Notes under the pieces: generated by a model | What the model saw: the letters and a program-made list of their open reading frames with translations, nothing else | Database searches by the model: none | What the model was told of the DNA's origin: nothing | Made by a program: the position numbers and the translations under genes | From: an uncultured bacterium | GTDB taxonomy: Bacteria > Planctomycetota > UBA1135 > GCA-002686595 | Direction of reading: 5' to 3' | Assembly: GCA_937896235.1 (NCBI GenBank) | Contig: CALBMX010000107.1 | Location: forward strand, 6,245-70,244 | Length of the DNA: 64,000 nucleotides | Shown here: piece after piece, positions 1,441 through 30,058 of the stretch | Position numbering within the stretch: the stretch's first letter is position 1 | Layout: each line of letters starts with the position of its first letter

Positions 1441-4400
1441 ATGCGAAATCGCTTTTTTGTCAGCCTCTTCACTCTATTTTGCTGCTTACTCGGAGCGCCC
1501 GAGGCCGGTGCGCAAGAGTTTTGGACGGGCGCGGTTTCGACGTCTTGGTTTGATGGAAACAACTGGCTGAGCGGCCAGGTGCCTGACGCCTCGACCAACG
1601 TGACGATTGGCGGGGCTCCGCTTCTCCCGGAGATCTCTTCCGGAGTCGGGAGCGTTGGGGACATTGACGTGCTCGCGGGGGCGACGGTGACCATTTCGGG
1701 TACGGGTACTTTAGAGACCCACGGCGCGGTCCGGTTGCTCACAGCGGCTGGTCAAACTGGGGTGTTCAACTTGGACACGGATACGACAGCGCTCAAGGTT
1801 AATGGAGCGTGGACTCAAGACGATGCAGCCGCCGTCGTTAGCAATGGTGGGCGCGTCGTCTTTGAGGGAGGCGCATCACTCGGAGGCAGCGCCGTCGCCA
1901 TTCCTTTTGCGCGGCTGTCGACAGGGACGACTACTCTGCTTTCGAATGTGTCGGTGGAAAACCTGGATGCGACAGGAGGAGTTTCGGCTGGTGCTGGATT
2001 CGCTTGGGAGTTTTCCGCGCCCACGGCAACTCTAGCGAGTGGTGCTCAGCCCATTCACTTGGTTCGTATCAGCGCGGGAGTGGTGACTGTGGGGACCTCC
2101 GTCATCCAAGAGCTTGAGCTGACCGGTGGAGAGATGTTTGTCAATATCGCGAGCGATGTGCAGTTCGCTACACGTCTTGAGCTGATCGGTGGAAAGGTGG
2201 GCTTTGGGAATCTCAGCACCAGTGTCCTTCGCGTGTTGGGGGACTTGATCTGCGGGAGCGCCGTAACCTGGGGGTCTGGCTACGTGGACATGGATGGGCC
2301 AGCTACGACGATTAGTGGTCCGGGTGGCACGACCGGCCACATGTCTCGATGCCGCTTGAAATCGGGCTCAACGGCCCTGCTTACAAATGTTGAGATCGAT
2401 GCCTGGCTGGGAAATGTCGGTGGTGCTACTACCGGAGAATGGTTTGAAATGGTGGGATCCTTTGCGTTCCTCTCCGGCGGCGGCAACCTCCATCGACTTC
2501 GCATCCTGTCGGGCTTGACGAATTCGTTCAACTGCAGTGCAGACGAGTTCGAGCTGCAAGGAGGAACTTTTAGCGTTGTCGGCGGCCAGACGTTTAACGC
2601 GGGCGTGAGTGCCGATCTCGTTGGCGGCAGCATGGCGTGGTCGAATCCGATCTCCGCAAATTTCCGATGCCAAGGCACTTTGATCGCCAGCTCTGGAGTG
2701 ACCTTCGGAGACGGATTCATTGATATGGATGGGACGACTACGATCTCTGGACCCGGCGGTGGACCAGCTCGAATCGGCAAGCTGAGGCTTTTTTCGGGGG
2801 TTTGCACTCTTTTGGCACCTGTGCAGATTGACTTTGAGCTCCAGTCCGCTGGCGGAACATCTGCGGGGGACTGGTTCGAAATGGTCGGTACAGATTCGAC
2901 GATTAGTTCCACCTCGGGCTCCTCTCACCAAGTCCGAATCACCGGTGGAAAGTGCTCGGCCGATGGAGCAACCGTCGACACATTAGAGATCACGGGCGGG
3001 ATCTTGGAGGTTCCCTCAGGTGAGATCATGACCGTCACGGGTGACGCGAATTTCCTCGGTGGTCAGCTGCAATTTGCAACGGATCTTTTTCCTACCGCAG
3101 CGCGCTTGGATGTGCTCGGCAACGTGGCTCAGACCGCCTTAGCCGGGGCAGCCACGATGAGTAGTAAGGGAAGCCTGCGCTGCATGGGCACCTGGACAGC
3201 TAATGCGGCGCTCGATTTGGGAGAGAGTTTTGTTGAGTTCGGAGAGGGCTCATCCGTGACGGGACTTGTGTCCGAGTTCCACAACGTTCGCATTCCGGCG
3301 GGGAGCACTCCCGTTAGTCTCCTCGCGCCCGTCCGGGTGTCCGGTCGCTTAGAGAGCGATGGTGGGGTCACCCAGGGACAGTGGTTTGAGATGACCGGTC
3401 CTAGCGCTGTGCTCGCGACGACCGACGACTCTCTACATGAGGTACGTATCCTGTCGGGCGTGACCACGGTTGAAGTAGCGACTTTGGATAAGCTGCAACT
3501 TCTAGGTGGCGAGCTTACTGTGCCTGCGGGAAAGACCTTGACGATCGTAAACGCGCTCGAGCTCCTGGGTGGCACGCTCGCCATGGATCCGACCGACTCC
3601 GGGACGGATGCTCGGATCATTGCTTCGGGTACGGTGACGCAGCTGGGTACGGGAGCTGCCCTGACGACGGGATCCGGTGGTACCCTTCGGTGCGACGGGA
3701 TCTGGCTTGGGAATGCCCCGATCGACCTCGACAAGAGTTTTGTTGAGATGGGGCCGAACTCCACAATCATTGGAAGTGCGGTCTCGTTCGGGCGCCTGCG
3801 CTTGGCCGAAAATGCGGCGGTTAGTTTGAATGCATTGGTGCCCGTGACCACGGAGCTCGTCGCGGAGACGGGATCAAGCACGGTTGGTTTCTTTGCACTT
3901 GAGGCCCAACCTGGTATTGGAAATACGATGGCCTTTTCTGGTGAAGGGCAGATCAGCGAACTCTCGATTGTGAACGGTCGTGTGGATGCGGCAGGTGCGC
4001 ATGTTGGGGTGCTGAAGTTACAGGGCGGGGTCTTTGCGGCAACGGGAGTCGGTCCCGATACGGAGGCGGCGTCCCTCTCCTTGGAGGGCGGCGAAGTTCT
4101 CGTCCGGGAAGGTGCCACCCTCTTGGTGACGGGTGACGCAACCCTGACCTCGGGATCGGTCGGTTTCGAGGTGGACGCGGGTGATGGTGCGGGCCTCGAC
4201 GCCATATTCCAAGTCGACGGCAGTGTTCATCAAATCGGTGCAACGGCGGCTGTCACAACGATAGCCAATGGCGCTCTGAGGTGCCGGGGGCTATGGACCG
4301 GAGACACTCCGATCGATTTGGGGCTGTCGAGGGTCGAGCTCGGGAGCGCCTCTGGAAGCACCTCCATTGGCGGTTTAGCGCCGGGATTCGGCAATCTGCG

Positions 4401-23341: not shown

Positions 23342-23637
23342 GATTTCGAGGGGCGCTCAAGACCCGAGCGCGGAGGTGAATGGGAACTTTTGCCTGTTGG
23401 TGGCAGCTACCTTGGAATGTAGCGCCCTGCATTTCACCGAAAATGCGAGTCAAATGCCATTTGGGCAGCCCGTCTTTTTTGGGAAGAGGCCCGTTTCAAG
23501 CCGATCCTCGCCGTTTGATGGAAATGCACGAGTCTTCGGCCCCAAGAACTTGCGCGCTGCCCTAACCTGAAGTTCGAAGCGACTCTCCCTAGTCCGCCCT
23601 CCCGCGCTCCGCTCGCAACCCCACGATCACGCAGCTA

Positions 23638-24225
23638 ATGACCAATCACTCGAATGAGAGCGCAGAGCCATCCCCAACAGCGACGATCGGTTACGCGTCT
23701 CTCGTGGAAGAGGGCCCGCGCGCGTTGCTCGACCGCCTTATCGATGGTGATCCACTGGAGATGCGCGCCCTCGTTCACGCGCGCTTAGCTGAGCGGTCGC
23801 TATTGTGGGACGAGGAGGCGCTCTGCCTTCGGGCACTCGCTCTTTGTGCGCACCAGACGGTTGTACAGCGCCGCCGTCGGTTGGATCGCGAGTGGCTGCT
23901 TGGGATCGTGGACCGCTCCATTGAACAGCTCGCATTGCTCGGCGAGGACATGTCGGATGGAAATCCGGCAGCGGGCTTCGCGGTGTTTGGGTTGCCCTTG
24001 AACTTTGAGCCCAGCGCGGTGCGACGAGCTTGCTTGGCACTAAACCGAATGGGGGACTTCCAAAGGCGCTGCTTCCGTGCGCTCCTTATAGATGGCCGCG
24101 ATCTCGATGCTGTGGCCCACGAGCTCGGCAGAGACGGGGGGGCGGTCGGGCGAGGGGCGCGCGAGGCCCTCGATAAATATTTAGGAGCATTTGTGTCACC
24201 AATGGCTTCGCCGTGCGACCACTAG
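23638..24225 (+). CDS. Sigma-70-like HTH protein (degenerate region 2 / region 4), hypothetical
   Basis: The C-terminal FQRRCFRALLIDGRDLDAVAHELGRDGGAVGRGAREALDKY resembles sigma region 4. It is the first gene of a three-gene same-strand cluster. Confidence 0.5.
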   Translation: MTNHSNESAEPSPTATIGYASLVEEGPRALLDRLIDGDPLEMRALVHARLAERSLLWDEEALCLRALALCAHQTVVQRRRRLDREWLLGIVDRSIEQLALLGEDMSDGNPAAGFAVFGLPLNFEPSAVRRACLALNRMGDFQRRCFRALLIDGRDLDAVAHELGRDGGAVGRGAREALDKYLGAFVSPMASPCDH

Positions 24226-24241
24226 CTTGACGGTACCCTCC

Positions 24242-25147
24242 ATGCATTACATCACACACGAAAACGACGACGACTCCCTGCAAGCTGAGCTCTACCGCGT
24301 TGGCAGCGGGATCGAATTCAGCTTCCGCGCACATGCCGAGCTCGATTCTGTTCACCGGCGCGAGCTCTCTGGCCTGCTGATTGAGGCCGCTAGAATTGGG
24401 CTAGGCCTTGGCGGTGTTGGAACGGCTGAGTATGGGACTCTGCTAGAGCCTCCGTGCGCGGGTTGGGAGCGTCGGGCGCGCCTCGAACTCGATCTGCTCG
24501 CGCACGACAGCTGTGAGCTTGAGGGTGGGGATCTGCTAAAGATGCAGCTCGATGGGGATCAAAAGCCGTCGCCGGAAATCCTGATCCTGGTCGGGCTAAA
24601 CCTGTGGAAATCGCCTGCGGGTTATCTTGCGCTTGGACAGGTCTTGTTGACGCGTGGCGAGGGGCGCCGGGCTCGTGACATGTATGCGGAGCTACTTCGC
24701 CAAGAGTTGGACGGTGAGTGCGGAGAGGACCGCGACATTCCTTGGCGAATTCGGGAGGGCCTCGGAGCAGCGTGGGCGCAGCTTGGGTCGGATCGCCTTG
24801 CTTTGGGTTGTTTGCGCAAAGCTGTCGAGATTCCGGGCTCGGGTGCCGGGCCCCTAATCACGGCATTTTTCTTGGCGCTTGAGCTCGGCCTCGGTGCCGA
24901 AGCCCTTGATTTCGGAGCACAGTTGGACCACCGGTTCTCGAGTTTATCTCTACGATTGCAGGCTTGTGCCAAGAGCTTAGGCGCACGAATTCAGCGGCGA
25001 CAAAATCTTCGGGGCGAGGGGTGTTGGACACCACCATCAACTTCGGTTGGCGCTCTGAAAGAGCTACTGGCAAGCCGTGGTGTTGCGTCGCAGATTTGCG
25101 AGGGGTTGGTTGGTCAGGGTGGCGACTTTGGGGGGCTGGCCTCATGA
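24242..25147 (+). CDS. Hypothetical helical-repeat (TPR-like) protein
   Basis: Start MHYITHENDDD lies 17 nt after the upstream stop. Its stop overlaps the next start (ATGA at 25144-25147). It has Leu/Ala-rich helical repeats and no catalytic motif. Confidence 0.5.
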   Translation: MHYITHENDDDSLQAELYRVGSGIEFSFRAHAELDSVHRRELSGLLIEAARIGLGLGGVGTAEYGTLLEPPCAGWERRARLELDLLAHDSCELEGGDLLKMQLDGDQKPSPEILILVGLNLWKSPAGYLALGQVLLTRGEGRRARDMYAELLRQELDGECGEDRDIPWRIREGLGAAWAQLGSDRLALGCLRKAVEIPGSGAGPLITAFFLALELGLGAEALDFGAQLDHRFSSLSLRLQACAKSLGARIQRRQNLRGEGCWTPPSTSVGALKELLASRGVASQICEGLVGQGGDFGGLAS

Positions 25148-27789
25148 TCGACGAAGCCCTTGAGCTCCTTGCCCCTGACATGTGCAAAGCCGGCGGCGCT
25201 GTCGCTGGTCGTTTGCGATCAGCGATTACCTTGGCGCGCCTGTTGGCGACCGAGGGCCGGGCTCCTCGGGCCGAGTCGATTGGGCTCGATATCTCCCGGG
25301 CAGAGGGCGAGCTGAATTTATGTATTCGGGTAGATGCTTTAGCGCTCTTGTCCGAGCTGTTTTTCGCTCATATGGTGAAGCGCTCAGGGCTTGAGCCCTG
25401 GGAGGTCGGGGCGCGCTCCACCACAGAGTTATGGCATGGCGTGGTGCGGTTGGAAGAGCGCAAGCTCGGCCTCGCATTACCCAGCTTGCCAGGTCCCGGA
25501 GAGTGTCGATCTGCGGTTTCGCAGCGGATCTTAGCGGCGGCAATGTGCTTGGGGTTGTCCTCCGTATCTAGTGCCCTCTGGCGTGGCCATATCGCATTTT
25601 CAGAGCAGGAGAGCCGGCGGGCCGAGCTCTCCTACCGTTCCGTTCTAGGGGGTGCGGAAAGGGGAAGTTTCAATGAGTGCAAGACCGCTATCTCTGGGGT
25701 TGCTGGGTGTCTCCTGGATCGAGGGGCTGTATTTTTGGCGAGGGATTGGATGGAGCGGCACTTAGATCTGGTTGCCGCATCGCCGGAGCTGGTTCGTCTT
25801 GCGGGACTCGCCAACTTGGCGGCCGGCGACCTAGAGGCGGCTGGCGAGTTTCTGGCCCCTCAACTTCGCCGGTGTCTACCGCTGGTCTTCGCGACCCTTG
25901 GGGATCGTCGCCCCGACTTGCGAGGGAGTCTATCGGGGCCCATGAAGTGGGAAAAGCCAGCTAAGATTCCAGGCGCTCAAAAACCCCGCCGGCTAAATCG
26001 TTCTGATGTCGGAGCCTCGGGCCTGTTTGTTTTAGAGGCTCCATCGCGGGGGCACTCTGGTCGATTGCTGTTTTCAGACTTGGCTAGCTCTTTGGGTGCA
26101 CCTTCCGCTGCTTGGCGCGATCGCCAAGCAGCAGCTCCATTTACATTGGGGGAACCCGAACAGGATCTTGTTGCGACTGCGAATCTCTGGGTCGGATTCA
26201 CAGACGACGAAGGCGGTGCGCGACTGCTCCGATCTTGCCACTCACCACTGACGAAGGCCGTGGCCCTAGTGCCGATTGGACGGGACGCCCCACGGGGCGG
26301 CGACCTACTGGGTTGGATCCGACTCGAGTTTGATCACCTCTTAGTTCCAGATGCCAAGCGTCTTGCGGCGTTAGGAGAGGCCGCAAGACGAGTTTTTTTG
26401 GGGTTGCCCAACCCGGTAGAAGAGGTACTTGAAGTCGAGCGCTTGACTCCTCTTTTTGAGAAGTTGACGAAAGGGATTTCCTTGGGGCGGCGCCGCTGGT
26501 GGGGGTTCGTCAAGGGGAGCAACGGGCCGGAATTCATTGCGTCCAGCGGCGAGGCTTTTGGAGACTGGGAGCGAGTGAGTGGCGGTTGCGGCGCTCTTGA
26601 GCGCGCCGAGAAGCAGGGAGACCGGATTGGGGAATCCCTTAGTTACGCCAAGGGTGCAGGGGGGACGGAAGGGGTGCACCCCGACGCGGCGGCGGGGCTA
26701 GTCCTTCCGATTCGATCCGGCGGCACTTGCGGTGGGGTTTGCGGTTGGCTTGTCGTGGAGTCCGCTCGACGAGACGATCTGGGGGCAAAAGAGAGCGGCT
26801 CTCTCTTGCGGGCTTGTCGCAACGTGGGGGCTGAAATAGGCTTGGCGCGCTTCGATTTGTGGCATCAAAAGACCTATAAGCATGCTGTCTTTTTTGCTGC
26901 CAAAAACTTAGCTCCACTGCCTGCACCTCTTCTCGCCCTCTTGGGGGACGAGGAGAGAGAGCTCGCATCTTGTGGACCGGAGACGGTCCCGCTTCTAAGT
27001 CTCGTATCCCAGGCCGCTACAGCAAGTTTAGGAGTGATCGTCTTAGTTGGTGGCCCAGGTGCAGGCAAGCGCATAGCAGCGCGATTGATACATTTTGAGA
27101 GGCAAGGGGGCGAGGCGGCGCCCAAAGTTCTGAGTTTGCGCACAACGGGCATCTCCGAGTGGCTGGGCGCACTTACTACAGCTGCTCCCGGAGGTGTGAT
27201 CCTTGAAGACTTGGAAGATCTAGATCCCGTTGGGCAGGAAGCTCTATTTGAACTTGTTGAGCGAGGAGAAGCCTCCCTTCGCCATGTGGTGATTACGACT
27301 CGGACTCCCCTAAGAGAGGGCAGCCTTTGGCCGCGTCTAAGAGACCTGCTGCAACACCACCAGGTCATCTTGCCGCCACTGACCGAACGCCGTGGGGTCC
27401 TGCCGGCGTTTTTTGACCTGTTTCTGTCGCGAGCGGCTCGACGAGAGCGGCGTATCGCACCCTTTGTTACTCCGCGCGCTACAGGGCTTATCTGGAGGGG
27501 AGACTGGGAAGGAGGGTTGCGTCAGCTTGCGGACTTCGCCCACCGGGTCATTATTTTTGGAGAGTCCGACCTATTGGACGAAGACGAGCTGCGGCGATTG
27601 GCGAAGCAGTCATCGCTAGAGCTGCCCAAGCGCTTTTCCAGCAAACATCCCGATCCAATGGCATTGTGGTGCGCGCTCGATACCAATCGGAAAAAGAGTG
27701 GGGGATTTCACCGAACCCGCACTGCTGAGCTCATGGGGTGGGACCCCGACACTCTTACCCAGAGGTTGCGAGAGTTGGGGGTAGATTGA
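25144..27789 (+). CDS. Large GAF-like / AAA+ enhancer-binding-protein-like regulator with C-terminal Fis-type HTH; GAFTGA loop absent
   Basis: Walker A is VLVGGPGAGKRIAARLIH. The Walker B region is GGVILEDLEDLD. Also present are LPPLTERRGVLPAFFDLFL (compare LPPLRER-EDI), WRGDWEGGLRQLADFAHRVII (compare WPGNVRELEN) and the HTH RTRTAELMGWDPDTLTQRLRELGV. Only ~25 aa separate Walker A from Walker B, with no ESELFGHEKGAFTGA-type segment. Confidence 0.7.
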   Translation: MIDEALELLAPDMCKAGGAVAGRLRSAITLARLLATEGRAPRAESIGLDISRAEGELNLCIRVDALALLSELFFAHMVKRSGLEPWEVGARSTTELWHGVVRLEERKLGLALPSLPGPGECRSAVSQRILAAAMCLGLSSVSSALWRGHIAFSEQESRRAELSYRSVLGGAERGSFNECKTAISGVAGCLLDRGAVFLARDWMERHLDLVAASPELVRLAGLANLAAGDLEAAGEFLAPQLRRCLPLVFATLGDRRPDLRGSLSGPMKWEKPAKIPGAQKPRRLNRSDVGASGLFVLEAPSRGHSGRLLFSDLASSLGAPSAAWRDRQAAAPFTLGEPEQDLVATANLWVGFTDDEGGARLLRSCHSPLTKAVALVPIGRDAPRGGDLLGWIRLEFDHLLVPDAKRLAALGEAARRVFLGLPNPVEEVLEVERLTPLFEKLTKGISLGRRRWWGFVKGSNGPEFIASSGEAFGDWERVSGGCGALERAEKQGDRIGESLSYAKGAGGTEGVHPDAAAGLVLPIRSGGTCGGVCGWLVVESARRDDLGAKESGSLLRACRNVGAEIGLARFDLWHQKTYKHAVFFAAKNLAPLPAPLLALLGDEERELASCGPETVPLLSLVSQAATASLGVIVLVGGPGAGKRIAARLIHFERQGGEAAPKVLSLRTTGISEWLGALTTAAPGGVILEDLEDLDPVGQEALFELVERGEASLRHVVITTRTPLREGSLWPRLRDLLQHHQVILPPLTERRGVLPAFFDLFLSRAARRERRIAPFVTPRATGLIWRGDWEGGLRQLADFAHRVIIFGESDLLDEDELRRLAKQSSLELPKRFSSKHPDPMALWCALDTNRKKSGGFHRTRTAELMGWDPDTLTQRLRELGVD

Positions 27790-27960
27790 CTCGGAGACGG
27801 TCCAACAGCGGGCTGTAAAGAAACTGGCGCCGTAGGATTCGTCGTCACCGTTCGCATGAGAAGGTGGGAAGACATCGCTTGGTGGTCGCAAAGCATGGGG
27901 CTTGGTACCGCCACAGGCCGTTTTCGGGCGGATGATTTGAAAGGGCATACATTTCTACGG

Positions 27961-28063
27961 CTGTTAACGAAAATGGCACCGACGCTTTCGCATCGGTGCC
28001 CCAGAGTCTCCATCTCCCAGATCGGGAGAAAATCTCTCGACCGCCCCCCCCAGGGTAGTCGAG
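27961..28063 (-). ncRNA. Candidate structured RNA unit A (three hairpins, conserved 15-mer, terminator-like 3' end)
   Basis: Minus-strand reading is CTCGAC[..CCCTG8CG]GTCGAG, then TCTCCC-GATCT-GGGAGA, then TGGAGACTC, then GGCACCGATGC-GAAA-GCGTCGGTGCC, then ATTTTCGTT. It is paralogous to unit B. Confidence 0.4.
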
Positions 28064-28389
28064 TGATGACCTCTTATTCGGACTCGGTGGTCTTCGAGAA
28101 TAGGGATCTTCGTTATCTGTGGGAATGTTCCCAAAATCGGCTCGAGGCAACGGGTATGTCCCGGGAGGGGGGGGGCGAGTTGTCCGACCCTCAATCGAGA
28201 GCCAGCCACACCTCGCCTAATTGGGCTGTATCGAGAATGCGATATCTTCAATCTCATTTGGAGGCTTGTGGTGGACGCACAGGGGGCCTCTGGGTTCTGC
28301 GCCCAATTCGGCGGGCTGGCCGTTGCAAGGTCAGGCTAGCGCATTCAAGCTTAGACCAACTTGGAGAGCGAATCCGTTGAGCTACCAGG

Positions 28390-28500
28390 CTTAAATGAGA
28401 AGTGGCGCCGCCACTTTCGTAACGGCGCCACCGAGTCTCCATCTCCCGTACGAAACGGGTAGATCAGCGCTTGTTGGCCCCCCCCGGGGCAACCCGCGCT
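28390..28500 (-). ncRNA. Candidate structured RNA unit B (paralogue of unit A)
   Basis: Minus-strand reading is AGCGC[GGGTTGCCCCG8CCAACA]AGCGCT, then ATCTACCCGT-TTCGT-ACGGGAGAT, then GGAGACTC, then GGCGCCGTTAC-GAAA-GTGGCGGCGCC, then ACTTCTCATTT. The block GGGAGATGGAGACTC is identical to unit A. Confidence 0.4.
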
Positions 28501-28642
28501 AACAACCTCATCGTCTTGGATGCATACTGTCGAGAGGGGATTCCGGCGCGGCTCCTTGCTTTCCCAGCATCGGGTCAAATCCCATCCCTCGATCTTCCGG
28601 AATACCGATTTTGATAGGTTTAGACCGCATTCCTTCAGCTTA

Positions 28643-30058
28643 ATGGACACACAAAACCCAGTAACTTCCCCATCTCGGGGGGGCTCGGCGCGCCGCTTTC
28701 TCATTCTCGGGGCATGTCTGATCCTGGGCGTTTTGGGGGTCACGTTATCTGGGGACCTAGCGCACTCTCCTTTGCTTGTAATCGGACTGTGGCTTGCCTT
28801 GGGGGTCCTATGGGGTTGCGCGCTGCTCTGGGCCCGAGGGTTCAATCGCGGGAGGAGCATGCTGCTCCCAATCCTGGTCGTTGCCGTATCGATGCGGGCA
28901 CTAGCCCTCTGTGCGGAGCCGAACCTGTCAGACGATGTTTGGCGTTATGTTTGGGAGGGAGGCCTGGTTCTTGAGGGGAAAAGCCCCTATGCCCAGGCAC
29001 CCGACGATCCGAGCTTGGCCAAGGAACGCGAACAATGGAGCGTTGCCTATGACCGGATGAACAACAAGGATGTGAGCGCCGCCTATCCACCCGTAACCCA
29101 AGCGGCGGTTGCTGCGGTGGTCGGCGCTATGGGGGGGAGTGAACAGCCCGACCGTGCGCGTTTCGGATTACGGATACTTTTCTCCTGCGCGGATCTACTC
29201 GCGCTAATCCCCCTCTTGGCACTTCTACGGCGAAGAGGTTTACCTGACGCCCTGCTCGTTTCTTGGGCCTGGTGTCCCCTGGTTGTATTTGAGTTTGCAA
29301 GTTCAGCACACCTCGACAGCTTGGGAATCCTATTCCTTCTGAGTGCTCTCGCCCTGCTGGATCGTCCCCTAGCCCTTCCGAAGGAGCAGTCCTCTCGGGT
29401 ATTTCTTGGATTGCTTTCACTGTCAGCGGCCTTCCTTGTGAAGTTTCTTCCGCTGCTGGCATTTCCGTTCGTCCTGCGCCGCCGAACGGTAGGTGCCAGT
29501 CTGTCCTCAGCACTAACCCTGGCCTGCTTGATTGCCCTTGGCTTTCTGCCGGTACTCGCACTCGAAGGGGGCCTCTCGGGCATCTTGGACGGGCTCGCCA
29601 ATTATGGATTGAGGTGGGAGTCATGGAATCTTATCCACAGGCACGTCGAGCCTATATTTAGCATGTGGGGAGACCGGGACGGGACTTGGTCCGACCCGAG
29701 AAAGCTCTCTAAGTTATTTACGGGCGGGTTAGCTGCCCTATGGATGTTGAGGCTTATCGTGCGGAGGGAGGAGCCCGTACGCGCAACAGGATTGGCCCTT
29801 GCGGCCTTCTTGATTGTGTCTCCAACTCTCCACCCATGGTACTTGACGTGGATCATCCCGTTTTTGGCCTTCTCAAAAGGTCGCGCTTGGATGTTCCTCG
29901 TCATCGCTTCACCGCTACTCTATTGGCCGCTGACGTCCTGGCAGCTTGTGGGCACATGGACCGAACCCGTATGGCTCTGGCCCCTCGTAGCCCTGCCCTT
30001 CTTTGGCCTACTCCTATCCGACTACAAGCGCAATCGAAGCGCACCCCATGCGCGTTGA
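28643..30058 (+). CDS. Polytopic membrane glycosyltransferase-like protein (GT-C fold, DUF2029/GT87 or PIG-M-like)
   Basis: It has many TM helices. The first loop, LSDDVWRYVWEGGLVLEGKSPYAQAP, resembles the DxD-like loop of GT87/PIG-M mannosyltransferases. The MDTQNPV start is preferred over the longer ORF from 28520. Confidence 0.55.
   Translation: MDTQNPVTSPSRGGSARRFLILGACLILGVLGVTLSGDLAHSPLLVIGLWLALGVLWGCALLWARGFNRGRSMLLPILVVAVSMRALALCAEPNLSDDVWRYVWEGGLVLEGKSPYAQAPDDPSLAKEREQWSVAYDRMNNKDVSAAYPPVTQAAVAAVVGAMGGSEQPDRARFGLRILFSCADLLALIPLLALLRRRGLPDALLVSWAWCPLVVFEFASSAHLDSLGILFLLSALALLDRPLALPKEQSSRVFLGLLSLSAAFLVKFLPLLAFPFVLRRRTVGASLSSALTLACLIALGFLPVLALEGGLSGILDGLANYGLRWESWNLIHRHVEPIFSMWGDRDGTWSDPRKLSKLFTGGLAALWMLRLIVRREEPVRATGLALAAFLIVSPTLHPWYLTWIIPFLAFSKGRAWMFLVIASPLLYWPLTSWQLVGTWTEPVWLWPLVALPFFGLLLSDYKRNRSAPHAR

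What the first reader, a model, noticed from the sequence alone, without database searches (positions are those of the whole stretch)
27961..28500. Two paralogous three-hairpin RNA units with compensatory changes, unassignable to a known RNA family
The units are A (27961-28063) and B (28390-28500). Their conserved blocks are 429 nt apart in the same orientation, inside an 853-nt stretch with no credible ORF. On the minus strand both read as four elements. First comes a stem enclosing a CCC(C)-G8 tract. Second is a hairpin whose 3' arm is GGGAGA. Together with the next bases it forms the identical 15-mer GGGAGATGGAGACTC. Last is an 11-bp hairpin capped by a GAAA tetraloop, followed by a U-rich tail (ATTTTCGTT or ACTTCTCATTT). 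The terminal hairpin differs at three base pairs between the copies (A-U to G-C, A-U to U-G, G-C to A-U) yet stays fully paired. Its G-U pairs exist only on the minus strand and would be C-A mismatches on plus, which fixes the transcribed strand. The pattern fits sibling sRNAs with intrinsic terminators and a single-stranded GGA-rich seed, or modules of one larger RNA. I could not match it to tmRNA, RNase P, SRP, 6S, group II domain V or common riboswitch cores.
Basis: seen in the sequence. Interest (0 to 1): 0.75.

Follow-up and report, generated by a model that had tools for sequence, protein, structure and literature searches.

The report
Tandem small RNA genes in Planctomycetota
Two neighbouring copies of a roughly 110-base, three-hairpin non-coding RNA gene, conserved at the same chromosomal spot across a group of uncultured Planctomycetota, form a real RNA family that matches no Rfam family and whose function is still unknown.

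Summary
Units A (27961-28068) and B (28390-28502), both on the minus strand, are paralogous three-hairpin RNA genes.

The same unit sits in the same gap, between an AAA+/HTH regulator gene and a GT87-like membrane glycosyltransferase gene. This holds in all 11 distinct related metagenomic populations examined whose contig covers the gap, with 1 to 5 tandem copies each.

On 24 distinct sequences, 89.5% of cells are paired and 28 of 37 pairs show double changes. No shuffle of 500 reached this, and slid controls gave 41-49% paired. G-U pairs (105, against 22 A-C) and GNRA terminal loops (18 of 24) fix the minus strand.

No Rfam family matches. There are no dispersed copies in 185,579 species genomes, no viral copies and no conserved ORF.

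Each unit ends in an intrinsic-terminator-like hairpin. Each is preceded at fixed distance by three conserved boxes that look like a two-box alternative-sigma promoter plus an upstream site.

The most conserved unpaired parts are an apical CCYG7-8CC loop and a GGAGAUGGAGAC linker.

Best reading: sibling trans-acting small RNAs that arose by tandem duplication. Expression, targets and mechanism are untested. It is a new family of a known kind, of moderate interest.

The parts
28390..28502 (-). sRNA unit B (whole covariance-model match, about 113 nt)
   Evidence: cmsearch 98.4 bits, E 1.6e-20. Orthologous B-type units are in L001, L003/L011, L004, L005, L016, L026 and L033.
27961..28068 (-). sRNA unit A (whole covariance-model match, about 108 nt)
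   Evidence: cmsearch 87 bits, E 6.5e-18. Orthologous A-type units are in L001, L003, L004, L005, L016 (two copies) and L033.
28465..28501 (-). Unit B helix P1, with the apical C4G8 hairpin at 28478-28489
   Evidence: MFE fold. In the family alignment, 14 of 17 P1 pairs show changes on both sides.
28033..28066 (-). Unit A helix P1, with the apical CCCU-G8 hairpin at 28044-28055
   Evidence: MFE fold. P1 covariation. The apical sequence CCYG7-8CC is nearly invariant in the family.
28441..28464 (-). Unit B helix P2 (AUCU-A-CCCGU / ACGGGAGAU)
   Evidence: MFE fold. P2 pairs are counted.
28013..28029 (-). Unit A helix P2 (UCUCCC / GGGAGA)
   Evidence: MFE fold. P2 pairs are counted.
28433..28447 (-). 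Unit B conserved 15-mer GGGAGAUGGAGACUC (3' arm of P2 plus the purine-rich linker)
   Evidence: Exact match. The linker is nearly invariant across the family.
28004..28018 (-). Unit A conserved 15-mer GGGAGAUGGAGACUC
   Evidence: Exact match. Linker conservation.
28393..28432 (-). Unit B helix P3 (14 bp, GAAA loop; 28401-28432) plus the tail UCUCAUUU. Intrinsic-terminator-like.
   Evidence: Terminator scan. P3 cells are 96.5% paired, and 9 of 12 pairs have double changes.
27966..28000 (-). Unit A helix P3 (11 bp, GAAA loop; 27975-28000) plus the tail AUUUUCGUU. Intrinsic-terminator-like.
   Evidence: Terminator scan. P3 covariation.
28556..28571 (-). Upstream Box 1 of unit B (GAUGCUGGGAAAGCAA), a candidate regulator-binding site
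   Evidence: The motif nnnnnnGRGAA starts 70 +/- 1 nt before the model start in 16 of 19 units.
28123..28138 (-). Upstream Box 1 of unit A (GAUUUUGGGAACAUUC)
   Evidence: (position -70) and the in-register print.
28506..28538 (-). Candidate core promoter of unit B: Box 2 CCCTCT (28533-28538) and Box 3 GACGATGAGG (28506-28515)
   Evidence: In-register comparison of 19 upstream regions. The Box 2-to-CGA spacer is 17-19 nt in 17 units, read by eye. The promoter role is inferred, not shown.
28073..28105 (-). Candidate core promoter of unit A: Box 2 CCCTAT (28100-28105) and Box 3 CCGAATAAG (28073-28081)
   Evidence: Inferred, not shown.
25144..27789 (+). Context: AAA+ (Sigma54_activ_2) plus C-terminal HTH regulator gene, convergent with the sRNAs. 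It has no GAFTGA motif.
   Evidence: Pfam. Motif check. Syntenic in all relatives.
28643..30058 (+). Context: MptA_B/GT87-like membrane glycosyltransferase gene, divergent from unit B
   Evidence: Precomputed PF26314 on the identical protein P0001. Synteny.
23638..24225 (+). Context: 195-aa ORF that opens the regulator operon. A cryptic ECF-sigma-like protein and a candidate sigma for the sRNA promoters.
   Evidence: Its profile hits M. tuberculosis SigD sigma-4, E 0.0029. The AF2 model has pLDDT 74.6. Foldseek top hits are nearly all ECF sigma factors, with TMt 0.7-0.83 over the sigma-4 domain.

Best explanation
Units A and B are two paralogous genes for a small (about 105-112 nt) structured non-coding RNA on the minus strand. 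They belong to a family confined, as far as the data reach, to a lineage of mostly uncultured Planctomycetota.

The proposed parts of each unit are:
- its own promoter: conserved Box 2 (CYYAC) and Box 3 (CCGA...), 17-19 nt apart and ending a few bases before helix P1, plus a Box 1 site about 27 nt further upstream;
- a long helix P1 capped by an invariant GCCC-(U)GGGG-GGGC hairpin;
- a short helix P2 (UCUYCCC / GGGAGA);
- an exposed purine-rich linker (GAUGGAGACUY, with GGA every 6 nt);
- a GNRA-capped GC-rich hairpin P3 with a U/C-rich tail that terminates transcription.

The family began as one copy and has multiplied by tandem duplication: 2 copies here and up to 5 elsewhere, some of them decaying. 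Stems have drifted by compensatory change, while the apical G-loop and the linker stayed fixed.

I infer that the loop and linker are the working surface. The RNAs most likely act in trans as sibling regulatory sRNAs, pairing with pyrimidine-rich sites in mRNAs. Transcription is probably controlled by the adjacent conserved operon (ECF-sigma-like protein, unknown protein, AAA+/HTH regulator).

What is shown: the structure, conservation, strand, copy-number dynamics, synteny, terminator-like ends and conserved upstream boxes. What is inferred: the transcript ends, the promoter type, trans action, pairing as the mode of action, and the identity of the regulator.
For: Reality and strand
- The covariance model hits only 27961-28068 and 28390-28502 in the window, at 87 and 98 bits.
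- On 24 distinct family members, 89.5% of cells are paired and 28 of 37 pairs have double changes. The covariation score is 0.493, against 0.21 in shuffles (0 of 500 reach it) and 0.065-0.145 for slid partners (similar result).
- There are 105 G-U cells against 22 A-C cells. This gives 89.5% paired on this strand against 79.9% on the other.
- P3 loops are GNRA in 18 of 24 sequences.

Orthology
- The same regulator | gap | GT87-like | QueA order holds at 45-68% glycosyltransferase identity, with the unit in the gap every time.

Autonomy
- L006, L008, L042, L043, L044 and L045 carry a single unit.
- Spacers between units are not alignable.

Termination
- The terminator scan flags both P3 hairpins on the minus strand.
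- P3 stays a hairpin with a U/C tail even where its sequence is entirely different, in L043-L045.

Promoter
- Box 1 lies at -70 +/- 1 in 16 of 19 units, although the intervening sequence has diverged.
- Boxes 2 and 3 are in register.

Not coding, not mobile
- ORF similarity to relatives is limited to the RNA unit, in several frames.
- A scan of one genome per species for 185,579 species gave 14 hits, of which only 2 Planctomycetota MAGs are real.
- The metagenome scan found three true loci carrying the unit.
- There were no viral hits.

Regulator link
- The 195-aa ORF at the head of the adjacent operon is ECF-sigma-like.
Against: - No transcript data are available, so the 5' and 3' ends and even expression itself are unproven.
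- No target was found. The linker shows no conserved complementarity to the translation-initiation regions of the regulator, glycosyltransferase, queA, thiE or methyltransferase genes in 11 loci. The window holds no good complement other than the antisense of the units themselves.
- A purine-rich seed would not pair with Shine-Dalgarno regions, which are the commonest sRNA target.
- The linker's GGAGA is predicted to be partly paired with the pyrimidine tail, with mean unpaired probability 0.44. That pairing is no better than composition-matched shuffles.
- The promoter boxes were read by eye, and they resemble ECF promoters only loosely (AC-ending -35, CGA -10).
- No matching motif with the same spacing was found upstream of the sigma-like gene.
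- The alignments used for pair counting were fitted to the model structure, which inflates the paired percentage somewhat.
Confidence: 0.6

Rival explanations
1. Protein-binding (sponge or scaffold) RNA. The invariant G-rich apical loop and the GGA-every-6-nt linker are recognition sites for an RNA-binding protein. Candidates are a CsrA/RsmA-type GGA binder, Hfq, or a lineage-specific protein from the neighbouring operon. The RNA would titrate or deliver that protein rather than pair with mRNAs.
For: - The unpaired segments are conserved in sequence far beyond what pairing with varied targets needs. The same linker sequence recurs in most of the main clade, in the window and in relatives whose glycosyltransferase is only about 50% identical.
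- The distant members L044 and L045 have three GGA motifs spaced 6 nt apart.
- No mRNA target signal was found nearby.
- From general knowledge, sRNAs with only two GGA motifs, such as E. coli McaS, can bind CsrA.
Against: - There are only 2-3 GGA motifs.
- The first GGA lies inside the P2 stem, and none sits in a hairpin loop, which is where CsrA sites usually lie.
- From general knowledge, a 6-nt spacing is too short for one CsrA dimer to bridge.
- Whether this lineage has CsrA or Hfq was not checked: the window was not screened for csrA or hfq, and the rest of the genome is not to hand.
Confidence: 0.2
2. Cis-antisense element or shared terminator. The RNAs act on the plus-strand transcripts they are complementary to, namely the 3' end of the convergent regulator mRNA or read-through into the glycosyltransferase gene. 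Hairpin P3 would double as the 3' end-forming structure of the regulator mRNA.
For: - In several relatives the unit's 3' end abuts or overlaps the regulator's stop codon. L006: gene end 3633, unit from 3629. L044: 3724 against 3714. L045: 3751 against 3748. L003: 3367 against 3381.
- No plus-strand terminator-like site exists in 27500-28900, so regulator transcripts may run into the antisense of the units.
Against: - In the window, unit A ends 171 nt after the regulator's stop codon.
- Antisense action needs no sequence conservation of loops and linker, yet these are the most conserved parts.
- G-U pairs and GNRA loops show selection on the minus-strand fold only.
- The plus-strand hairpin is not followed by a U tract.
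Confidence: 0.12
3. The two units are domains of one larger (about 550-850 nt) non-coding RNA that spans the whole gap.
For: - Both units lie on the same strand, 429 nt apart, in a gap with no conserved ORF.
- C-rich tracts in the spacer could in principle pair with the G-loops.
Against: - Six related loci have only one unit in a 250-460 nt gap.
- Spacers differ in length (about 300-630 nt) and share no sequence.
- Each unit carries its own terminator-like hairpin and its own copy of the upstream boxes.
Confidence: 0.03
4. Not an RNA gene. The repeat would instead be a DNA-level element (a REP/MITE-like element or a protein-binding site), or part of a small protein-coding gene.
For: - Public gene callers annotate a 174-aa ORF across unit A.
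- The plus-strand sequence also folds, with z-scores of -4.6 and -4.9.
Against: - Copies occur only at this one syntenic locus and are absent elsewhere in the 64 kb.
- The ORFs are not conserved beyond the RNA unit and match relatives in several frames.
- The substitution pattern is compensatory in stems, with a strand-specific excess of G-U pairs.
Confidence: 0.02

Closest known systems
Pxr sRNA of Myxococcus and other Cystobacterineae
   Same: [quoted passage not shown]
- Restricted to one lineage.
- Always found in the intergenic region beside an NtrC-type AAA+ regulator gene (nla19).
- A single copy in most species, with tandem paralogs in one genus that diverge faster than orthologs do (PMC5568312, read).
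   Different: - No sequence or structure match to any Rfam family at E <= 10.
- Pxr is described as lying downstream of nla19 and transcribed from a sigma-54 promoter. Here the RNA is convergent with the regulator, and the gap has no -24/-12 match within 3 mismatches.
- The regulator here lacks the GAFTGA loop.
- The published Pxr probe sequence implies a C-rich segment in Pxr, not a G8 loop.
- This is an analogy of organisation, not homology.
Sibling sRNA sets such as PrrF1/PrrF2 (tandem, Pseudomonas) and Qrr1-5 (Vibrio)
   Same: - Paralogous sRNAs of about 100 nt.
- Identical exposed segments with diverged stems.
- Each copy has its own promoter and intrinsic terminator.
- Tandem arrangement, as in PrrF. 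These points rest on general knowledge; the PrrF tandem duplication is cited in the reference list of PMC5568312.
   Different: - A different phylum, with no sequence similarity.
- The seed here is purine-rich.
- Dependence on Hfq, targets and inducing signal are all unknown here.
ECF-sigma-dependent sRNAs (MicA, RybB and MicL under E. coli sigma-E)
   Same: - Possibly an sRNA driven by an ECF-type sigma factor.
- Boxes 2 and 3, spaced 17-19 nt apart, end in AC and CGA.
- The neighbouring operon starts with an ECF-sigma-like protein.
- The divergent neighbour is a cell-envelope glycosyltransferase.
   Different: - The sigma-promoter link is inference only.
- The promoter boxes match ECF consensus loosely.
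- There is no homology to those sRNAs, and no envelope-protein targets have been identified.
CsrB/RsmZ/McaS-type CsrA-titrating RNAs
   Same: - Conserved GGA motifs in a small terminator-ended RNA.
   Different: - Only 2-3 GGA motifs, spaced 6 nt apart.
- The motifs are not presented in hairpin loops.
- CsrA is not known to be present in this lineage.

Membership tests
Any described RNA family (Rfam 15) | A covariance-model match at or near the family's gathering score | tested here: not met
   - No hits at gathering score in the whole window.
- The only hit at E <= 10 in 27700-28750 is a eukaryotic lncRNA model on the plus strand, at 10.7 bits.
- In six orthologous loci the only hit is BjrC68 at 20.9 bits against a gathering score of 39, E 0.46.
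Trans-encoded bacterial sRNA with intrinsic terminator | Intergenic, non-coding, and conserved as RNA structure | tested here: met
   - Covariation is shown.
- ORFs are not conserved.
- No same-strand gene lies upstream or downstream within the gap.
Trans-encoded bacterial sRNA with intrinsic terminator | A GC-rich terminal hairpin followed by a U-rich tail | tested here: met
   - Both units are flagged by the terminator scan.
- P3 is retained with wholly different sequence in L043-L045.
- The tails are a U/C mix rather than pure U.
Trans-encoded bacterial sRNA with intrinsic terminator | Its own promoter and a discrete transcript | tested here: inconclusive
   - Three conserved upstream boxes lie at fixed distance from P1.
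- No sigma-70 consensus was found.
- No transcript data are available.
Trans-encoded bacterial sRNA with intrinsic terminator | A conserved accessible seed with complementary mRNA targets | tested here: inconclusive
   - The linker and G-loop are conserved.
- Predicted accessibility is 0.73 for the loop and 0.44 for the linker.
- No conserved target was found among neighbouring genes or in the window.
- A genome-wide search is not possible with these tools.
REP / MITE-like dispersed repeat | Many copies scattered through a genome | tested here: not met
   - There are two copies in 64 kb, both in one gap.
- In relatives, copies occur only in the syntenic gap.
- Only 2 true genomes were found among the representative genomes of 185,579 species.
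Sigma-54-dependent sRNA next to its enhancer-binding protein (Pxr/Qrr type) | A -24 GG / -12 GC promoter upstream of the RNA | tested here: not met
   TGGCAC-N5-TTGCW has no match within 3 mismatches between 27090 and 28685 on either strand.
Sigma-54-dependent sRNA next to its enhancer-binding protein (Pxr/Qrr type) | The neighbouring AAA+ regulator carries the GAFTGA sigma-54 contact loop | tested here: not met
   There is no G[AS]F[TS]G[AG] motif in the 941-aa translation, although the Walker A motif GGPGAGKR is present.
CsrA/RsmA-titrating RNA | Multiple GGA motifs presented in hairpin loops or well-spaced single strands | tested here: not met
   There are 2 GGA motifs (3 in L044 and L045), spaced 6 nt apart. 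One lies in the 3' arm of P2 and none in a loop.
Cis-regulatory leader or riboswitch | Lies in the 5' UTR of a downstream gene on the same strand | tested here: not met
   On the minus strand, the next feature after unit A is the antisense of the regulator gene. No minus-strand gene follows.

The most novel reading that the evidence does not exclude
The RNA may be the dedicated partner of the adjacent, equally lineage-specific operon (a cryptic ECF-sigma-like protein, an unknown ~300-aa protein and a GAFTGA-less AAA+/HTH regulator), not a generic base-pairing sRNA. Its invariant GCCC-GGGG-GGGC apical hairpin and GGA-hexamer linker would be bound by one of these proteins. This would form an RNA-protein signalling module of a kind not yet described, for instance an RNA that gates a sigma or anti-sigma switch or the AAA+ regulator. 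Such a role would explain why the RNA and the operon have stayed adjacent across the whole lineage.
Probability: 0.12. Interest if true: 0.7.

Novelty: new member of a known kind. Interest (0 to 1): 0.45.

Why it matters
- Three full-text literature searches turned up no paper describing an sRNA in Planctomycetota, and Rfam has no match for this one. This candidate has strong covariation support, a fixed genomic address and a recognisable promoter and terminator layout. That gives an entry point to RNA-based regulation in a phylum with unusual cell biology.
- The locus shows sRNA birth and death by tandem duplication at several stages: 1, 2, 3 and 5 copies, with stems drifting while loop and linker stay fixed.
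- The work flags a likely mis-annotated 174-aa 'protein' in public assemblies.
- It also reveals a cryptic ECF-sigma-like gene that Pfam misses.
- Without expression data or a target, it remains a well-supported candidate rather than a mechanism.

Tried and rejected
1. Rfam. Searches at gathering score and at E <= 10, on the window and on six orthologous loci, found nothing usable.

2. Dispersed-repeat idea. The genome scan returned 14 hits. Twelve are chance matches inside ORFs of unrelated phyla, several encoding a GWSLGG-type motif. The metagenome scan returned 18 loci, of which only L026, L033 and L039 carry the unit. The viral scan returned none.

3. Coding potential. tblastn of seven ORFs overlapping the gap against 11 related loci hit only the RNA unit, in several frames.

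4. A third, decayed copy in the window's spacer. None was found with filters off. Decayed copies do exist in L001 and L016.

5. Sigma-54 promoter. There is no -24/-12 match in the gap and no GAFTGA in the regulator.

6. Sigma-70 promoter scan. No sites were found.

7. A fourth helix between the GGAGA linker and the pyrimidine tail. The mean duplex energy is -5.46 kcal/mol, against -5.05 for shuffled tails, and 50 of 300 shuffles do as well. There is therefore no evidence of selection for it.

8. Neighbour genes as targets. Duplex energies between the linker and translation-initiation regions scatter across the background distribution and are not conserved between loci.

9. Complements of the linker or G-loop elsewhere in the window. 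Only the antisense of the units themselves matches.

10. Box 1 (GRGAAC) as an ECF -35 element. The distance to any CGA/CGT-like -10 varies from 10 to 18 nt, so I treat Box 1 as an upstream site. Boxes 2 and 3, with a constant 17-19 nt spacing, are treated as the core promoter.

11. An autoregulatory copy of the boxes upstream of the sigma-like gene. Nothing convincing was found.

12. Population variation. Four other contigs of the same population are identical across the gap, so they carry no information.

13. Engelhardtia mirabilis, the only cultured organism named among the listed glycosyltransferase homologues. Its locus could not be fetched.
Full report
**Observation**

The minus strand of 27600-28800 contains the two units as described.
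- A repeat search finds a 48-nt core at 27971-28018 and 28400-28447, 429 nt apart and 81% identical.
- The 15-mer GGGAGATGGAGACTC occurs exactly twice in 64 kb. All other matches need 3 mismatches, which is what shuffles give.
- Each unit folds into three hairpins, with z-scores of -4.4 and -5.7.
- The plus strand also folds, as any hairpin set does. Only the minus strand gives terminator-like sites.

**Surroundings**

The gap 27790-28642 lies between two plus-strand genes.
- Upstream is a 941-aa ORF with a Sigma54_activ_2 AAA+ domain and an AAA lid.
- Downstream is a 471-aa membrane protein, followed by queA and, on the other strand, thiE.
- The membrane protein's closest relatives are hypothetical proteins of uncultured Planctomycetota, carrying the MptA_B/GT87 family mark.

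**Related sequences**

I fetched contigs that encode homologues of the membrane protein at 45-68% identity.
- All keep the order regulator | gap | glycosyltransferase | queA.
- The gap holds the RNA unit on the strand opposite to the genes in every locus whose contig covers the gap (L002 starts only 183 nt upstream of the glycosyltransferase gene).
- L001, L003, L004 and L005 carry both an A-type and a B-type unit.
- L006, L008 and L042 carry one unit.
- L041 carries two diverged units.
- L043, L044 and L045 carry one strongly diverged unit. Its terminal hairpin has a completely different sequence but is still a hairpin with a U/C tail.
- A-type units group with A-type, and B-type with B-type, across L001, L003, L004, L005, L016 and the window. 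The duplication therefore predates the split of those species.
- Single-copy genomes have a B-like P1 and an A-like P3, which suggests each paralog later changed a different stem.
- L016 has five units and L001 three, including low-scoring, apparently decaying ones.

**Distribution**

- An exact-pattern scan of one genome per species for 185,579 species returned 14 loci. Only two Planctomycetota MAGs are real. The rest lie inside ORFs of unrelated organisms, at about the number expected by chance.
- A second pattern, built from the G-tract and linker so that P3 was left free, found only three true metagenomic loci. It found nothing in viral contigs.
- In the window, the covariance model finds only the two units, even with filters off.
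- This is therefore not a dispersed repeat.

**Structure**

- I built a covariance model from 19 units and realigned all the matches.
- On 21 distinct sequences, 90.3% of cells pair and 26 of 37 pairs change on both sides.
- Adding the distant members gives 24 sequences, 89.5% of cells paired, 28 of 37 pairs with double changes, and a covariation score of 0.493.
- Column shuffles give 0.21, and none of 500 reaches the observed value. Sliding the partners gives 41-49% paired and scores of 0.065-0.145.
- These alignments were fitted to the model, which favours the structure. The margin is large, however, and a plain MAFFT/RNAalifold run already showed 11 of 24 predicted pairs, 8 of them in P3, kept through changes on both sides.
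- There are 105 G-U cells against 22 A-C cells, so the opposite strand would lose about 10 points of pairing.
- P3 loops are GNRA in 18 of 24 sequences: GAAA, GAGA, GACA and GUGA.
- The unpaired parts that stay fixed are the P1 apex (GCCCYG7-8CC) and the linker (GGGAGAUGGAGACUY). In L044 and L045 the linker becomes three GGA motifs spaced 6 nt apart.

**Not coding**

Mechanical ORFs cross the gap, and public pipelines call the 174-aa one a gene. Yet tblastn against 11 related loci matches only the ~100-nt RNA unit, in three different frames on both strands.

**Upstream signals**

- In 16 of 19 units, a motif (CCC)AUUUnnGRGAA starts 70 +/- 1 nt before the model start, although the sequence in between is unrelated.
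- Printed in register, two further boxes appear. Box 2 is CYYAC, about 38-31 nt upstream. Box 3 is CCGA(C/A)AUAA-like, about 20-8 nt upstream.
- I counted 17-19 nt between the AC of Box 2 and the CGA of Box 3 in 17 units.
- This is the layout of a two-box promoter whose start site would fall a few bases before P1, with Box 1 as an upstream binding site.
- No sigma-70 consensus and no sigma-54 consensus is present.
- The neighbouring regulator lacks the GAFTGA loop needed to contact sigma-54.
- The operon that ends with this regulator begins with a 195-aa ORF that Pfam does not recognise.
- A profile of that ORF's five homologues hits the sigma-4 domain of M. tuberculosis SigD, with E 0.0029.
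- Its AlphaFold model has pLDDT 74.6. The model's best Foldseek matches are almost all ECF sigma factors, with weak E-values but TM 0.7-0.83 over sigma-4.
- I therefore propose, as inference, that an ECF-like sigma drives the sRNA promoters.
- I did not find the same boxes upstream of the sigma-like gene.

**Mechanism**

What is shown is a conserved, structured, terminator-ended RNA gene family with tandem paralogs. How it acts is inferred.
- Sequence conservation is concentrated in an exposed loop and linker while the stems drift. This is the usual signature of sibling base-pairing sRNAs, so that is my preferred reading.
- I could not find targets. There is no conserved complementarity to the start regions of the five syntenic neighbour genes, and there are no complements elsewhere in the window.
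- The linker's predicted pairing with the tail is no better than composition allows.
- The chief rival is a protein-binding role.
- A second rival is a cis-antisense or shared 3'-end role. It rests on the unit abutting or overlapping the regulator's stop codon in L003, L006, L044 and L045.

**Comparison with known systems**

- The closest analogue in organisation is Pxr of myxobacteria. It is about 108 nt with three stem-loops, is lineage-restricted, sits beside an AAA+ regulator gene, and has tandem paralogs in one genus (PMC5568312).
- Pxr uses a sigma-54 promoter, and there is no sequence relationship with the present family.
- Tandem PrrF1/2 and the Qrr set are similar as sibling sRNAs.
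- Three full-text literature searches returned no paper describing an sRNA in Planctomycetota.

**Verdict**

This is a real RNA family that matches no described family, and it is a new member of a known kind. Interest is moderate (0.45), because expression and function remain untested.

Noticed in passing
window 23638-24225 (+): A 195-aa ORF at the head of the regulator operon has no Pfam hit. A profile of it and its four homologues matches M. tuberculosis SigD sigma-4 (E 0.0029), and its AlphaFold model matches ECF sigma factors. It is probably a highly diverged ECF-type sigma factor, with only 5 homologue clusters among 5.8 billion proteins.
   Followed up: partly
window 27856-28380 (+): Public assemblies of this population call a 174-aa ORF here as a gene (L046, L047, L049). 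It runs antisense across unit A and the spacer and is not conserved in relatives. It is probably a spurious annotation.
   Followed up: yes
window 28167-28175 (minus strand C9 run); also L001 ~3565-3595 and L005 ~3595-3620: Long C runs sit on the sRNA strand in the spacer upstream of the A-type unit in several genomes. They are complementary to the G7-8 apical loop. Possible readings are chance, a Rho-loading site, or a relic.
   Followed up: no
L016 2667-3975 (GTDB MAG JBLHWM010000009.1); L001 3638-3741: L016 carries five tandem units scoring 103.8, 52, 102.3, 24.4 and 88.8 bits. L001 carries a third, weak unit at 37 bits. These show ongoing duplication and decay at this locus.
   Followed up: partly
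window 25144-27789 (+): The Sigma54_activ_2 AAA+ regulator has a Walker A motif but no GAFTGA loop, and it ends in what looks by eye like a Fis-type helix-turn-helix. It is unlikely to be a true sigma-54 activator, and about 650 N-terminal residues have no family assignment.
   Followed up: partly
L006 3629-3633; L044 3714-3724; L045 3748-3751; L003 3367-3381: In several relatives the 3' tail of the sRNA unit overlaps, or lies within 14 nt of, the stop codon of the convergent regulator gene. Hairpin P3 may therefore also shape the regulator mRNA's 3' end.
   Followed up: no
window 28533-28571 (minus); equivalent positions in L003, L005 and L016 B-type units: In B-type units, Box 1 (GGGAAAG) and Box 2 (CUUUCCCC) are mutually complementary, about 17 nt apart, forming a possible hairpin or inverted-repeat operator. 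A-type units lack this.
   Followed up: no
window 23401-23416 (+): TGGCAGCTACCTTGGA matches the sigma-54 -24/-12 consensus with 2 mismatches, about 220 nt upstream of the sigma-like ORF. At this stringency it could well be chance.
   Followed up: no
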